Assembly: GCF_056712565.1 (NCBI RefSeq)
Contig: NZ_CM160072.1
Reading direction: 5' to 3' (one strand)
DNA length: 64,000 nucleotides
Positions 57,901 to 64,000 of this stretch are shown here, piece after piece. Made by a program: the position numbers. The first letter of the stretch is position 1; every line of letters starts with the position of its first letter.

Positions 57901-60900
57901 TCGATGCTTATGCTGCCAGTGATCCTGCTGAATGTTTTGCCGTACTTTCTGAATATTTCTTTAGCGCCCCAGAACTTTTTGCTCCTCGTTTCCCTTCATT
58001 GTGGCAACGTTTCTGCCAATTTTATCAACAAGATCCTTTGCAGAGACTGCATCACGCTAATGATACAGACTCGTTTTCGGCGACGAATGTTCATTAATTA
58101 ACAACTTTGCAGATTAATTAACCAATTGAAATGGCTTATGAAATTTAGTGTTGACAGACAAGGTACCGCTAAGTAATATGCGCCCCGTTCTCACGATTCC
58201 TCTGTAGTTCAGTCGGTAGAACGGCGGACTGTTAATCCGTATGTCACTGGTTCGAGTCCAGTCAGAGGAGCCAATTTTCTGTTTTCTTGCATCCTTGCGA
58301 ATCTTTATCTGATGTTGATTCAACAGGTTAGTGTGAAAACTCTTCTCGGTGCATTTTTATTTTACCCTACGCATCGGGAAAAATTGGTGGTCAAATCTGG
58401 GGTCAGGTTAGTTCGATAATGGAGTGACCCCCATATATCCCTTACCGACGCAAAAATCCGCACCCTCAAGCCTTCTGATAAACCCTTTAAAGTCTTCGAT
58501 TCTCACGGTCTGTATCTGCGGGTCAAGCCGGGTGGCTCCCGCCACTGGTATCTCAAATACCGTATTAGCGGTAAAGAATCCCGCATTGCGCTGGGTGCCT
58601 ATCCAGCCATCTCCCTGTCTGATGCGCGACAGCAACGTGAAGGTATCCGTAAAATGCTGGCGCTGAATATCAACCCGGTACAGCAGCGGGCTGCTGTACG
58701 TGGCTCACGAACACCGGAGAAAGTTTTTAAAAACGTGGCGCTGGCGTGGCATAAAAGTAACAGGAAATGGTCGCAGAACACCGCCGACCGTCTGCTTGCC
58801 AGCCTGAACAATCACATCTTTCCGGTCATCGGGAACCTACCTGTATCAGAACTTAAACCCCGTCATTTCATTGACCTGCAGAAAGGGATCGAGGAAAAAG
58901 GTCTGCTGGAGGTTGCGTCCCGCACACGGCAGCACCTGAGTAACATAATACGCCATGCGGTCCATCAGGAGTTAATCGATACGAACCCTGCAGCAAACCT
59001 TGGCGGCGTGACCACACCTCCTGTCAGACGGCACTATCCTGCCCTGCCGCTGGAGCGGCTGCCTGAACTGCTTGAACGTATTGGGGCATATCATCAGGGC
59101 CGTGAACTGACCCGGCATGCCGTTCTGCTGATGCTGCATGTGTTCATTCGCTCCAGTGAACTGCGTTTCGCCCGCTGGTCAGAGATTGATTTCACAAACC
59201 GAGTCTGGACGATACCCGCGACGCGAGAACCCATTATTGGCGTGCATTATTCCGGCCGCGGGGCAAAAATGCGAATGCCGCATATCGTCCCCCTCTCAGA
59301 ACAGTCCATCGCCATTCTGAAACAGATTAAGGATATCACCGGTAATAATGAACTGATCTTCCCCGGCGACCATAACCCGTATAAGCCAATGTGTGAAAAC
59401 ACGGTCAATAAGGCACTGCGGGTGATGGGTTACGACACGAAAAAGGATATCTGCGGTCACGGCTTCCGGGCAATGGCATGCAGTGCGCTGATGGAATCGG
59501 GTTTATGGGCAAAGGACGCAGTAGAACGCCAGATGAGTCATCAGGAGCGCAATACCGTGCGCATGGCTTATATTCATAAGGCAGAGCACCTGGAAGCCCG
59601 CAAAGCGATGATGTAGTGGTGGTCGGATTATCTGGAAGCATGCCGAGAATCTTATGCACCGCCTTATACAATTGGTAAAAATAAGTTTATCCCATAGTAT
59701 ACTAACGAATCCCACACTCTGGCAAATTACCACCACCTCCACAGGAGGTGGTTCTATATAGACTTTTATCAACTTCATGACGAAAAACACCTATTTTATC
59801 CCAAAAGAAGACAATAGAGTCACAGAGGAATCAAAGAGCGACTCAATTGTCTTTGGACAGTCTGGTTGTGAGGTTAGAAAACAGTTACTCCTACACCATT
59901 AAATAGGGCGCAATGCTCGCTAATTTCTCCCGGGTTTCTGTCAGTTCGCGTTCCGGCGTAGATTGCGCGATGATTCCCGCCCCCGCCTGTATCCAGCAGC
60001 GCTGGCTATCCTGAAATACGGAACGCAGAACTAGCGCCGCATCAAAGCGCGTATCGTCCAGCAGCAGGATTGCGCCGGAATAAAGCTCTCGCGGCGTCTT
60101 CTCAATTTGCATAATCGCGTTCAGAGCAGCATTTTTAGGGATACCTGAGGCAGTAATCGACGGAAACAGCACGGTAAACGCATCCCAGGCATCCTTGTTT
60201 TCCGCAAGCTGACCGCTCACGCCAGACCCCAGATGCTGAACGCTGCCGCGCTGGCGAACCGACATTAAATCTTCAACCACCACGCTGCCCGGCTGGCAAA
60301 CAGCCTCCAGTTCAGCAATAGCTTCTTTGACAGAAAGGATATGCTCAAGCACCTCTTTACTGTCGTGCAGCAGTTCTGCCTCTTTCGCCTTATTATGCTC
60401 CGGGTTTCCCATGCGATCGCGGGTGCCCGCAAGCGGTTCAGTGACCACTTTATTGCCCGTCACTGACATCACCAGTTCCGGGCTAAAGCCCAGCGCTTCG
60501 CGTCCTTCCTGACGGAACATAAACGAGCGCACAGGCGTGTTTGCCTGCCGCCCGTATAACAGCGTGGCGGGCATATCAATCCGCGATGGCAGGGGAATGG
60601 CGCGCGAGACAATCACTTTGACATACTCGCCACGGCGGATCTCCGCAACGGCGCGCGCAACCTGTTGTTTATATGCCTCACCATTGAGGGCGGTATCCAC
60701 CGCCAGTGGTGCGTTCTGCGTCGTTGTACCGGCCTCTTTTACCCACTCGCACAAACGTCGGCACCCGTCGGCGGAGTCCGCATAAACGGTGACATTTCCC
60801 TTTTCAAAAATAAGTTCTTCACGGGGAACGGTTAACGTCAGCAGCGGCCACTCCCCGGCGTTAAAGGCAATCCCCCGCGCATGCGCCGCAAAGTTGAACC

Positions 60901-63900
60901 CAACCTGTCCATATACCCGACGTCCTTTCACCTGAGGATGCGCCATAAAACGACGCGCGCAGTCGGCAATGGAATCCACCGCCCATTTTTGCTCCCCAGC
61001 ATCATCAATAAATGTCGCCTGCGTTCCGTCGGCATTAATGTGCAGCCGTGCCTGGCACCCTTTGCCTAAATACCAACAGGGTTGACGCTCATAGACATAA
61101 CACTCTTCTTCTGCGAACTGGCGTAAAACGCCAGAAATCGTCGGTAGCCATTGTTCCTCTGGTAACGCCAGATGTAGAAATTCACTGATTTTCATCCCTT
61201 ACCTCTCTGTGTTATTCCCGGATCAATCAATTGCGCTTGTCATCAGTTCTCTTGCCGAATGCAGCCGGATATAAGCAACCCACGCCGCCAGCAACGTGAA
61301 TGCCCCGGCAAACAGGAAGCAGGCCGCATAGCCAAAATGTTGAGCAACAACGCCACCGATAACGCCAGCCAGAATGGCGATTGCCGCGTCAGTACATTGA
61401 AAGAGGGTGAAGTCGACACCGGCCTGCAAAGGCGATGAAAGCGACATCAGCGTGGCGTAAAGACAGACCAGCGCGCAGGCCAGCGAAATGGACTGGACAA
61501 TGACCAGACACTGGAGAATCTGCAGCAGCAGATGACCCGGCGCCATCATGAGCGTCATCACCACCGCCAGCAGCGCGATCCCCTGGACGCCATAAGCCGT
61601 CAACAGCGCTCTGCCGGGTGAGGTGTATTTCATCAGCAATCCGCCGGCCAGCGTTCCTGCTATGCCCGCTGCAATATTGCCGCCGCTGAACAGCGCGCCC
61701 AATGCGGACATGCTCAACCCATGATCCAACAACAGCGGTGCCAGAAGAGGCAGCACAAACCGCATGCCTGAATTCAGCATCAATACCAGCAGTAAGCCCA
61801 GGCGCGCCTGCTTCCTCCTTAGCGCATAACCTAACGCCGGAACATGCGGGATAGTCGCTGTTCGCGTCGGCTCCGTAATGCGCCACAGCGGGAGTGACAG
61901 CGCCATAATCAGCACCGCCATCATCAGCATGGCGACAGGCCAGCCGGATGCCGCCGACAGCATCAGGAACACCCCGCCGCCGCACATCATTCCCAGATAG
62001 CTGCCGCCGACCTGCACGCTGTTTCCCCAGCCGTAACCCGTGCGGGTCAGTTGATCGACACAAAAGCCGTCGCTGGCGATATCAATGGTGGAGGCGACCG
62101 TGCCTGCCACCATAAACAGAACAAATAACGCGACGATTTGCGTATCGGGGAATCCCCCTTCTCGCCCAAACCAGCCAATCGCTGCGGCAATAGTCAGGAT
62201 CGCCGCTAGCGCGACCTGACCACGCAGGATTAACATGCGGGAACGGCGTTCCTGGCTACCGGGCGGAAGCCGCCAGCGCTCGATCCACGGCGCCCAAATA
62301 AACTTCAGCGCCCAGGGCAGCATAAACAGGGTTGTCGCACCGGCAAGCGCCAGCGAACCGCCAGCAGCGCGCACCAGCGCGGGTAAGGACTGCATAGACA
62401 GCGCCGATACCAGACTCTGCGTCACATAGACGCCGGCAATAGCAAAAATCACCCGCCCGGTCGTCAACGTCAGAGGTTTCACATTCGACTGAACATCACT
62501 CATGCACCCACTCTCCAGACGCGGAACCCCCGTCGTCGCGCCACACGCGCGCGGCCATTTGCGCCTGCCACAGCGCCTGATAACGTCCATGATGTGAGAG
62601 CAATTGCGCATGAGTACCCTGCTCAACCACCTGTCCCTCTTCCATCACCAGAATGTTTCCGGCCCCGGCGATGGTGGATAAACGGTGAGCGATGATAATC
62701 ACCGTCCGGTTGTGAACCAGGTTATCGATCGCTTTTTGCACCGCCAGCTCGCTTTCAATATCCAGCGCGGCAGTCGGTTCATCGAGAATGACGACCGGCG
62801 CGTTTTTCAATAACGCTCTGGCAATGGAAATCCGCTGGCGCTCGCCGCCCGATAGCTGGCCGCCCATCTCTCCCATTGGCGTCAGCCAGCCTTGCGGAAG
62901 ACGGGAAATAAACTCAAGGCACTGCGCCGCGCGGGCGGCCTCTTCTACCTCCTGCCGCGTCGCCTGTGGGCGCGCGATACGGATATTCGCCAGCAGCGTG
63001 TCATCAAACAGCCAGACATCCTGGAAAACAACAGAAATCAGGCTATTGAGCTGTTCCGGCGTCAGGCGGCGAATATCGACGCCGCCAATAGAAATCTGCC
63101 CTTGCTGCGGATCGGCATAGCGCATTAACAGTTTGGTGACCGTAGTTTTGCCTGCGCCGGAGGCACCCACCAGCGCGCTCATACTGGCTGCCGGGAACGT
63201 CAAAGAAACATGATTAAGCGCGTGGCCGTCACCTTCTTCGTAGCGATAGCTGACGTTGTCAAAGCTGATATCGTAACGTTCCGGCATCTCGCTTTGCTCT
63301 GCGACGGGAAGCGGTGCTATCGCCATAAACTGCTCAATCCGTTGCAGGGCGCTGGCGATCAGTTCCACAACCGAGGTGTAGCTGATAAACATCGCCATCG
63401 GTTCTGCGAAGCGCATAATCATCGCGACGGCGGCAATCAAAAAGGCGAGGTTCAGAGTGCCCGTCACTACCCAGACGATCCCGGATAACACCACCACCTG
63501 TAGGCCCAACTCCACGACGCTGGCGATCAGCATCGTTGCGCCAGCGCCCTGACGGTGAGTGCGGGTCTGTAAGTTTTCCAGCGCATTGAAATGCGCCAGC
63601 AGCGCCCGGCTTTTATCGGCATCGCTGCCGCAGGTGCGCAATACCATCATCCCCTGAGCAAATTCAACGATATCGCCGCTCAGACGCTGGTGCGCTTCCC
63701 CCAGCGTCTGCATTTGTCGCCGCATCGCCGGGCGGCGCCAGTAATAAAACGGCACCAGCAGAGGGAAGATCAGCAACATCACCAGCCCCAGCCGCCAGTC
63801 TATCCACAATGTCGCCAGCGACGCCGTCAGCGGCGTGACAATGGTGAGCAGCAAAATATTGGCTATCGCAATAACATAATTGAGGTTTTCATCCACGCTG

Positions 63901-64000
63901 CCCAGCAGCAAGGCGTTCATTTCACCCGCCCTGCCGCGCTGGAGCTTCTCCAGCGGCACGCGGCGTAACTGCTCGCCAAGTCGCAGGCGCAACTCATGGG

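What the first reader, a model, noticed from the sequence alone, without database searches (positions are those of the whole stretch)
58198..64000. Yersiniabactin HPI left junction at asnT
tRNA-Asn is followed at about 160 bp by a P4-like integrase and then ybtS, ybtX and ybtQ, the start of the yersiniabactin siderophore island. This is a well-described virulence island rather than a novel system, but it defines the strain as HPI-positive and, with the decayed int, as carrying a probably immobilised island.
Basis: partly seen in the sequence, partly recalled or inferred. Interest (0 to 1): 0.35.

Follow-up and report, generated by a model that had tools for sequence, protein, structure and literature searches.

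The report
Yersiniabactin island left end at asnT

Summary
tRNA-Asn(GTT) lies at 58198-58273 (+) and is asnT by synteny with K-12. K-12 homology stops at 58274, the last base of the 17-bp att core.

A P4-type integrase gene follows after 161 bp (58435-59697). Then come ybtS, ybtX and the 3' five-sixths of ybtQ, all on the minus strand. They are the distal end of the ybtPQXS operon and converge on int.

The int gene is damaged in two ways:
- Its start codon is ATA. This variant occurs in 971 of 5426 complete E. coli genomes.
- Codon 394 of 420 is a CAG-to-TAG nonsense change, found in only 65 genomes. It removes a MMQWWxDYL tail that is conserved with P4 Int.

Genomes 99.99-100% identical to the window carry the full ybtP-ybtA-irp2-irp1-ybtUTE-fyuA cluster. 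They have no right-end direct repeat, no excisionase and no conjugation module. This is the published "common-type", fixed E. coli HPI.

Positions 61196-61222 are a 27-nt intercistronic spacer with a ribosome-binding site, not a YbtA box. The YbtA repeat motif occurs only at the irp2 and fyuA promoters, outside the window.

Verdict: already known, low interest.

The parts
58151..58179 (+). Promoter-like site (TTGACA-17-TAATAT) 19 bp upstream of asnT; probable asnT promoter
   Evidence: Consensus scan, 10 of 12 matches. Its function is inferred. PMC8209727, citing earlier work, says that the HPI int promoter is replaced by the asn tRNA promoter after integration.
58198..58273 (+). tRNA-Asn (anticodon GTT), asnT
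   Evidence: ARAGORN and Rfam RF00005 at 72.6 bits. Synteny serU-mtfA-asnT matches K-12.
58258..58274 (+). 17-bp att core CCAGTCAGAGGAGCCAA (attL); the left boundary of the island
   Evidence: K-12 homology ends exactly at window 58274. In an ICE-type element the same 17-mer recurs as the right direct repeat. It does not recur in the window's lineage.
58275..58434 (+). Island-specific non-coding leader between attL and int
   Evidence: No K-12 counterpart. Conserved at 96.6% identity or more with the rest of the int region in 1929 E. coli genomes.
58435..59697 (+). P4-type tyrosine integrase pseudogene (intB / int-HPI). ATA instead of ATG at 58435-58437; TAG nonsense at 59614-59616 (codon 394 of 420)
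   Evidence: Codon-by-codon comparison with intact E. coli alleles. PGAP note 'internal stop' in S88 and Z0117EC0054. Pfam domains. 48.6% identity to P4 Int. The stop falls after the catalytic Tyr (AYIH) and removes the conserved QWWSDYL tail.
59698..59890 (.). Convergent int/ybtS intergenic region. A 9-bp-stem hairpin lies at 59732-59752, and a second hairpin is followed by UUCUUUU on the minus strand; probable ybtPQXS terminator
   Evidence: RNA fold of the minus strand, z = -2.56. Terminator function is inferred.
59891..61195 (-). ybtS (irp9), salicylate synthase, 434 aa, intact
   Evidence: TIGR03494 salicylate synthase equivalog, 682.5 bits against a cut-off of 325. Annotated as WP_000703040.1 YbtS in a genome 100% identical over this stretch.
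61196..61222 (-). 27-nt ybtX-ybtS intercistronic spacer with a Shine-Dalgarno-like AGAGAGGTAAGGG; not a YbtA box
   Evidence: Sequence read directly. No RS motif found.
61223..62503 (-). ybtX (irp8), MFS transporter, 426 aa, intact; its start overlaps the ybtQ stop by 8 bp
   Evidence: MFS_1 in Pfam. RhtX/FptX-family similarity, below cut-off. Annotated as WP_001286281.1 YbtX in an identical genome.
62496..64000 (-). ybtQ (irp7), ABC transporter permease/ATPase; the 3' 1505 of 1803 bp, cut by the window end
   Evidence: ABC_tran in Pfam. MsbA-like ABC exporter hits. Annotated as WP_001350678.1 YbtQ in an identical genome, where the gene continues for 298 bp beyond the window.

Best explanation
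The region is attL and the first 5.7 kb of the 'common-type' Escherichia coli high-pathogenicity island (HPI). This is the yersiniabactin (ybt/irp/fyuA) siderophore island, integrated by a P4-type tyrosine integrase into the 3' end of asnT.

What is in the window:
- attL.
- The integrase gene.
- The distal part of the ybtPQXS operon, transcribed towards int. It encodes YbtQ (half of the YbtPQ ABC importer), YbtX (an MFS transporter) and YbtS (the salicylate synthase that makes the yersiniabactin starter unit).

Expression of these three genes is driven from the Fur- and YbtA-controlled ybtP promoter, which lies beyond the window end.

The integrase gene here is a pseudogene with an ATA start and a Q394* stop. 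In genomes essentially identical to the window, the island also lacks its right direct repeat, its excisionase and its conjugation module. It therefore cannot excise by site-specific recombination. It is inherited vertically, or moved only with flanking DNA by homologous recombination.

Shown here: the gene identities, the junction, the int lesions and their population frequencies, and the absence of YbtA repeat motifs in the window.

Inferred: the operon's transcription and terminator, the loss of Int activity, and everything to the right of position 64000, which is taken from proxy genomes.
For: - tRNA and junction.
- Identity to annotated E. coli HPIs: three genomes are 100% identical over 7 kb, and 2242 of 5426 complete genomes carry at least 80% of the stretch.
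- The window is collinear and 99.988% identical over 56.4 kb with NZ_CP098206.1. That genome has the complete ybtP-ybtA-irp2-irp1-ybtU-ybtT-ybtE-fyuA set. S88 has the same set.
- Protein families: salicylate synthase equivalog at 682 bits, plus MFS, ABC and integrase domains.
- P4 relationship: 48.6% identity, E = 1e-116.
- int lesions. Allele counts are TAG 65 against CAG about 2193, and ATA 971 against ATG 1287.
- Relaxed selection on int among six common-type alleles: pN/pS is 1.13, against 0.24-0.56 for ybtS, ybtX and ybtQ.
- No direct-orientation copy of the 17-bp core to the right of fyuA in S88 or Z0117EC0054. An ICE-type element at asnT in strain SW070910 has the repeat together with AlpA, a VirB type IV secretion system and MobC.
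- G+C is 0.55-0.60 in the ybt genes, against 0.36-0.54 in the backbone just upstream.
- Literature: a unique right-border deletion leaves the HPI fixed at asnT (PMC2606025, PMC8209727). The locus has four operons, with YbtA repeat sites only at the irp2, fyuA and ybtP/ybtA promoters (PMC5634559, PMC11225919).
Against: - The window stops inside ybtQ. The rest of the cluster and the state of the right border are not observed in this strain; they are inferred from genomes 99.99-100% identical over the overlap.
- Loss of Int activity is not demonstrated. All Pfam domains and the catalytic R, K, H-x-x-R, H and Y residues lie upstream of the stop, and ATA can initiate weakly.
- The pN/pS contrast rests on six alleles and is not significant (Fisher one-sided p = 0.07).
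- NCBIfam gave no above-cut-off family for YbtX or YbtQ. Their names rest on identity to RefSeq-annotated proteins.
Confidence: 0.95

Rival explanations
1. The element is a mobile, ICE-type ybt island (ICEEc1/ICEKp-like) with a type IV secretion module and both direct repeats. The window simply does not reach far enough to show them.
For: Such elements do occur at asnT in E. coli. Strain SW070910 has an int that is 96.6% identical, AlpA, a VirB type IV secretion system, MobC and a perfect right 17-bp repeat.
Against: - The window's int region is 99-100% identical to common-type alleles and only 96.6% identical to the ICE type.
- The genome that is 99.988% identical over 56 kb, and S88, have fyuA followed after about 1 kb by a truncated yeeJ, with no ICE genes and no right repeat.
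- The int gene carries a nonsense codon.
Confidence: 0.02
2. The int gene is still functional. Translation starts at ATA, or the 393-aa product lacking the last 27 residues is active. The island could then recombine with other asn tRNA genes (asnU, asnV, asnW), causing excision-like deletions or inversions.
For: - All three Pfam domains and the catalytic residues precede the stop.
- PGAP accepts ATA-start alleles as coding in other strains.
- The 17-bp core is present in the other asn tRNA genes nearby, and the asn tRNA region is arranged differently in S88 and Z0117EC0054.
Against: - The lost tail begins with the QWW(S/A)DYL motif, which is conserved between HPI Int and P4 Int at only 48.6% overall identity. 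That conservation argues the tail is needed.
- No excisionase gene is present in the proxies.
- int shows pN/pS of about 1 in common-type islands.
- Rearrangements between identical tRNA genes need only RecA.
- The published view is that the island is fixed (PMC2606025).
Confidence: 0.04
3. ybtS has its own YbtA-dependent promoter in 61196-61222 and beyond, as the first reader suggested checking.
For: None was found. The only basis is that YbtA regulates the locus.
Against: - The spacer is 27 nt and contains a Shine-Dalgarno sequence.
- The composite repeat of the irp2 and fyuA promoters has 0 matches in the window with up to 3 mismatches. The half-site ACCCGAAACRGG has one chance-level match, at 34523, and four exact matches at the irp2 and fyuA promoters of the proxy.
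- The literature places the repeat sites only at the irp2, fyuA and ybtP/ybtA promoters and treats ybtPQXS as one operon (PMC5634559, PMC11225919).
- Caveat: the more divergent repeats of the ybtP-ybtA region were not captured by my motif.
Confidence: 0.02

Closest known systems
Common-type E. coli high-pathogenicity island (HPI; PAI IV of strain 536-like) at asnT, as defined by Schubert et al. 2009 (PMC2606025)
   Same: The insertion site (asnT), the attL core, the int-ybtS-ybtX-ybtQ order and orientation, and the high G+C all match. In near-identical genomes the full ybt/irp/fyuA set is present and the right-border deletion has removed the direct repeat and part of the backbone (yeeJ 5' end).
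   Different: Nothing structural differs. The int allele is one particular decay state: an ATA start, shared with about 43% of E. coli HPIs, plus Q394*, found in 65 of 5426 complete genomes including S88 and O1/O2:K1:H7 strains.
Yersinia pestis / Y. pseudotuberculosis HPI
   Same: The same gene set and operon layout, the same P4-like int next to an asn tRNA, and the same 17-bp att core.
   Different: According to the literature cited in PMC8209727, the Yersinia islands keep both direct repeats and can occupy any asn tRNA gene. I recall from the literature, without checking it here, that the Y. pseudotuberculosis island also has an excisionase (Hef). The E. coli form lacks the right repeat, and no AlpA/excisionase-like gene is annotated in the proxies.
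ICE-type ybt elements (ICEEc1 of ECOR31, ICEKp of Klebsiella); example here: E. coli SW070910 at asnT
   Same: The same left end and ybt core. About 1 kb to the right of fyuA is shared at 98.6-99.8% identity.
   Different: The ICE type continues with AlpA, a VirB type IV secretion system, MobC, cargo genes (TIR-domain proteins) and a right 17-bp repeat next to an intact yeeJ. In the window's lineage all of this is deleted, and the first ICE ORF is fused to yeeJ.
Bacteriophage P4 integrase
   Same: The same three-domain architecture, the same catalytic residues and the same conserved MMQWWxDYL tail in intact HPI alleles. Identity is 48.6%. Both integrate into the 3' end of a tRNA gene.
   Different: The window copy has a non-ATG start and a premature stop that removes the tail. 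It belongs to a siderophore island, not to a satellite phage.

Membership tests
Common-type E. coli HPI (yersiniabactin island) | Inserted at the 3' end of asnT (the asn tRNA gene that follows mtfA/yeeI) | tested here: met
   tRNA-Asn at 58198-58273 downstream of mtfA. K-12 homology ends at 58274.
Common-type E. coli HPI (yersiniabactin island) | A P4-like integrase gene immediately inside attL | tested here: met
   int at 58435-59697; 48.6% identical to P4 Int; three integrase domains.
Common-type E. coli HPI (yersiniabactin island) | ybtS, ybtX, ybtQ next to int and convergent with it | tested here: met
   ORFs and HMM hits. 100% identity to annotated genomes.
Common-type E. coli HPI (yersiniabactin island) | The remaining genes ybtP, ybtA, irp2, irp1, ybtU, ybtT, ybtE and fyuA | tested here: inconclusive
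   These lie beyond the window end. All are present and unflagged in NZ_CP098206.1 (99.988% identical over 56 kb) and in S88. They were not observed in this strain itself.
Common-type E. coli HPI (yersiniabactin island) | Right-border deletion: no right 17-bp direct repeat, and the backbone (yeeJ 5' end) affected | tested here: inconclusive
   Outside the window. Met in both proxies: there is no direct-orientation core to the right of fyuA, and the island sequence joins yeeJ at K-12 locus position 4214. This agrees with PMC2606025.
Common-type E. coli HPI (yersiniabactin island) | G+C content different from the backbone | tested here: met
   0.55-0.60 in ybtS, ybtX and ybtQ, against 0.36-0.54 upstream.
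Functional P4-type tyrosine integrase | Arm-binding, central and catalytic domains with the R, K, H-x-x-R, H and Y residues | tested here: met
   Pfam PF13356, PF22022 and PF00589. Alignment to P4 Int shows RSSELR, GAKMR, HGFR, SHQ and AYIH conserved.
Functional P4-type tyrosine integrase | An uninterrupted full-length ORF (420 codons) with a canonical start codon | tested here: not met
   ATA at codon 1 and TAG at codon 394. Annotated as a pseudogene in identical genomes.
YbtA-regulated promoter (RS repeat sites) | The inverted ACCCGAAACRGG repeats found at the irp2 and fyuA promoters | tested here: not met
   No match in 58198-64000. The motif occurs four times, exactly at the irp2 and fyuA promoters of the proxy.
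ICE-type ybt element (ICEEc1/ICEKp) | Type IV secretion and mobilisation module, an excisionase, and a right direct repeat | tested here: inconclusive
   Outside the window. Absent in the proxies and present in the comparison strain SW070910.

The most novel reading that the evidence does not exclude
The int gene of the fixed E. coli HPI is an unselected relic decaying in steps. About 43% of E. coli HPIs already carry an ATA start codon, and int polymorphism is mostly amino-acid-changing (pN/pS about 1.1, against 0.24-0.56 in the neighbouring ybt genes). The Q394* allele in this window marks one clonal sublineage: 65 of 5426 complete genomes, including S88 and O1/O2:K1:H7 strains. [quoted passage not shown]
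Probability: 0.6. Interest if true: 0.15.

Novelty: already known. Interest (0 to 1): 0.08.

Why it matters
It marks the strain as carrying the yersiniabactin island, a recognised fitness and virulence determinant of extraintestinal pathogenic E. coli. The island is of the common, chromosomally fixed type. Nothing about the mechanism is new. The practical value is in annotation and typing:
- The exact attL boundary.
- The int allele (ATA start plus Q394*), usable as a lineage marker.
- A correction: the ybt genes in the window are the tail of the ybtPQXS operon, so their regulation sits outside the window.

Tried and rejected
1. YbtA boxes near ybtS. I derived the repeat motif from the irp2 and fyuA promoters of a proxy genome and scanned for it. 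There was nothing in the finding's region. The ybtP-ybtA intergenic repeats are too divergent to be captured at one mismatch or fewer, so the scan could miss a weak site of that type.

2. NCBIfam naming of YbtX and YbtQ. Only sub-threshold hits to related transporter families were returned, so I relied on identity to RefSeq annotation instead.

3. Phage-collection hits with about 99% identical integrase looked as if the HPI might be phage-borne. The record ON470583.1 turned out to be a serU lambdoid prophage prediction that overshoots into mtfA-asnT-int. Rejected.

4. A protein alignment through the tool failed because of the internal stop. I redid it by script with the stop masked.

5. Consensus terminator scan. 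It gave no more hits than shuffled sequence (7 against 6.5) and nothing in the int-ybtS gap. The hairpins there come only from folding.

6. The contrast in int selection is suggestive only (Fisher one-sided p = 0.07). The six genomes were also picked along a ranking by int-region identity, which inflates the number of int differences, though not their N:S ratio.

7. A literature search for a prior description of the Q394* or ATA alleles found only the known 347-bp intB deletion (bp 124-470, PMC2801613). An allele with a gap of the same length is present in other E. coli genomes.
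Full report
**Observation**

ARAGORN finds tRNA-Asn(GTT) at 58198-58273 (+) and tRNA-Ser(CGA) at 57117-57206 (-). Rfam confirms both. The ORF between them is mtfA. The order serU-mtfA-tRNA-Asn is that of asnT in K-12 MG1655.

BLAST of the window against the K-12 locus shows that homology runs through the tRNA and stops at window 58274. That is one base past the tRNA and the last base of the 17-mer CCAGTCAGAGGAGCCAA. Everything from 58275 to the window end is absent from K-12 at this site.

**What follows the tRNA**

The ORF list shows a 320-codon frame at 58654-59616 (+). On the minus strand it shows frames of 434, 467 and 498 codons.

The stretch 57000-64000 is 100% identical to three RefSeq E. 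coli chromosomes. It is present, at 80% coverage or more, in 2242 of 5426 complete E. coli genomes. There it is annotated as mtfA, tRNA-Asn, a tyrosine recombinase, ybtS, ybtX and ybtQ.

Mapped from S88 and Z0117EC0054, the coordinates are:

| Feature | Window coordinates | Strand |
|---|---|---|
| int | 58435-59697 | + |
| ybtS | 59891-61195 | - |
| ybtX | 61223-62503 | - |
| ybtQ | 62496 to beyond 64000 | - |

ybtQ is 1803 bp in full, and 1505 bp of it lie in the window.

HMM evidence agrees:
- YbtS hits the salicylate synthase equivalog TIGR03494 at 682 bits against a cut-off of 325.
- YbtX is an MFS protein with sub-threshold similarity to the RhtX/FptX siderophore transporter family.
- YbtQ is an MsbA-like ABC permease/ATPase.

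G+C rises to 0.55-0.60 in the ybt genes, against 0.36-0.54 just upstream.

**The integrase**

The conceptual product has Arm-DNA-bind_3, Phage_int_M and Phage_integrase domains. It is 48.6% identical to phage P4 Int over 393 residues, E = 1e-116. 'P4-like' is therefore correct.

Comparison with four E. coli alleles that PGAP treats as intact shows two lesions in the window copy.

1. Codon 1 is ATA rather than ATG.
   - The frame opens only at 58420, after a TAA.
   - The next in-frame ATG, GTG or TTG is Met74 at 58654. That is why the ORF finder reports only 320 codons.
   - A product starting at Met74 would lack most of the arm-binding domain.

2. Codon 394 is TAG instead of CAG (C to T at 59614).
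   - The stop lies 12 codons after the catalytic tyrosine (AYIH).
   - It removes the last 27 residues, beginning with QWWSDYL.
   - This motif is conserved between HPI Int and P4 Int (MMQWW(S/A)DYL) despite only 48.6% overall identity.
   - PGAP flags the gene as a pseudogene ('internal stop') in S88 and in Z0117EC0054.

To place these alleles in the population I used 55-mers centred on each variant. With this design every 28-base megablast seed has to contain the variant base.

| Site | Window allele | Alternative allele |
|---|---|---|
| Codon 394 | TAG: 65 genomes | CAG: about 2193 genomes at 95% identity or more, plus paralogous integrases at lower identity |
| Codon 1 | ATA: 971 genomes | ATG: 1287 genomes |

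The nonsense allele is therefore a minority, probably clonal state. Its carriers include S88, ATCC 11775 and several O1/O2:K1:H7 avian and human strains. The ATA start is common.

A third decay state also exists in other genomes: a 347-bp internal deletion. It has the same length as the published bp 124-470 deletion (PMC2801613).

Among six common-type alleles, int has 14 amino-acid-changing and 5 silent polymorphic codons, giving pN/pS of 1.13. The corresponding values are 0.25 for ybtS, 0.24 for ybtX and 0.56 for ybtQ. This is what an unselected gene would show. The sample is small, however, and the contrast is not significant (one-sided p = 0.07).

**Orientation and regulation**

The three ybt genes are on the minus strand and converge on int. 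The ybtQ stop overlaps the ybtX start by 8 bp. ybtX and ybtS are separated by 27 nt (61196-61222), whose minus-strand sequence is TCCGGGAATAACACAGAGAGGTAAGGG followed by ATG. That is a ribosome-binding site.

[quoted passage not shown] The YbtA repeat sites lie in the irp2, fyuA and divergent ybtP/ybtA promoters (PMC5634559, PMC11225919).

I derived the repeat from the proxy genome. The irp2 and fyuA promoters share ACCCGAAAC(G/A)GG-N10-CCCGTTTCGGGTAGCA.
- The composite motif has no match in the window with up to 3 mismatches.
- The half-site has one chance-level match, far away at 34523.
- In the proxy the half-site occurs exactly four times, at the irp2 and fyuA promoters.

The promoter that drives the genes in the window lies beyond position 64000.

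The 193-bp int-ybtS gap folds more stably than shuffled sequence on the minus strand (z = -2.56). It contains a 9-bp hairpin at 59732-59752 and another hairpin followed by UUCUUUU. These are plausible terminators for the operon, but that is an inference.

**Beyond the window**

The window is collinear with NZ_CP098206.1 (strain Z0117EC0054) over 56,376 bases, with 6 mismatches and one gap. That genome, and S88, carry ybtP, ybtA, irp2, irp1, ybtU, ybtT, ybtE and fyuA, all without pseudogene flags.

To the right of fyuA, neither genome has a copy of the 17-bp core in direct orientation before the next natural asn tRNA genes. K-12 homology resumes inside yeeJ at K-12 locus position 4214. So 587 bp of backbone, including the first 218 bp of yeeJ, is missing.

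Strain SW070910 provides the contrast. It carries an ICE-type ybt element at asnT, with an int 96.6% identical to the window's. There, fyuA is followed by:
- an AlpA-family gene;
- a VirB type IV secretion system;
- MobC;
- TIR-domain cargo genes;
- a perfect right 17-bp repeat;
- an intact yeeJ.

The roughly 1 kb after fyuA in S88 matches the ICE at 98.6-99.8% identity. The match ends within the first ICE ORF, which is fused to yeeJ.

This is the 'unique deletion of the right border' that Schubert et al. described as the hallmark of the common E. coli HPI and as the reason it is fixed at asnT (PMC2606025; restated in PMC8209727). Immobilisation is thus well supported. It does not depend on the int lesions, which are better seen as a consequence of the island no longer needing its integrase.

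**Comparison and verdict**

The feature is a member of the common-type E. coli HPI. Every defining feature that falls inside the window was tested and met. Those outside the window are met in near-identical genomes.

It is not an ICE-type element. Its integrase fails the test of an uninterrupted ORF with a canonical start. There is no YbtA-box promoter in the region.

Nothing here departs from published knowledge. The only additions are small:
- the exact boundary coordinates;
- the frequencies of the two int alleles among complete genomes;
- a hint of neutral evolution of int.

Interest is low and the novelty class is 'already known'.

Noticed in passing
window 56448-56669: A 222-bp AT-rich stretch with no K-12 counterpart lies between zinT and serU. 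It replaces about 995 bp of K-12 sequence that includes yodB.
   Followed up: partly
window 42682-42864 (-): yodC carries an internal stop codon. It is annotated as a pseudogene in the near-identical genome, and the sequence is exactly the same in the window.
   Followed up: partly
window 23405-26848 (-): A block of emrE, ybcL, ybcM and an OmpC-like porin gene sits between fliE and yedK. From memory, not checked here, these genes belong to the DLP12 prophage end in K-12. The block looks like a prophage-remnant insertion in the flagellar region.
   Followed up: no
window 14252-16009 (-): fliC encodes a 585-aa flagellin. The strains with the same int allele are mostly listed as K1:H7 serotypes. 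The flagellin type itself was not checked.
   Followed up: no
L001 33402-34151 (S88; outside the window, right of fyuA): The CDS annotated 'inverse autotransporter beta domain-containing protein' is a chimera. Its first ~353 bp come from the first ICE ORF downstream of fyuA. The rest is yeeJ from about codon 74 onward. It marks the right-border deletion junction.
   Followed up: partly
L018 (ON470583.1) 1-2600: A GenBank 'phage' record, and probably two others, contains mtfA, asnT and part of the HPI int. The cause is a serU lambdoid prophage prediction that overshoots its boundary. It explains the ~99% 'phage' hits to the HPI integrase.
   Followed up: yes
L001 42122-44001 versus L008 1-2439 (outside the window): The asn tRNA cluster downstream of the HPI is arranged differently in the two proxies. 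S88 has yeeN-asnW-yeeO-asnU. Z0117EC0054 has yeeN-tRNA-Asn-nac-cbl-tRNA-Asn. This indicates a rearrangement between the identical asn tRNA genes.
   Followed up: no
L012 1-4200 (strain DJH_137urine): In this genome the HPI int is preceded not by mtfA-asnT but by H-NS-family, DUF6387 and helix-turn-helix genes. The HPI there lies next to another island or at a different site.
   Followed up: no
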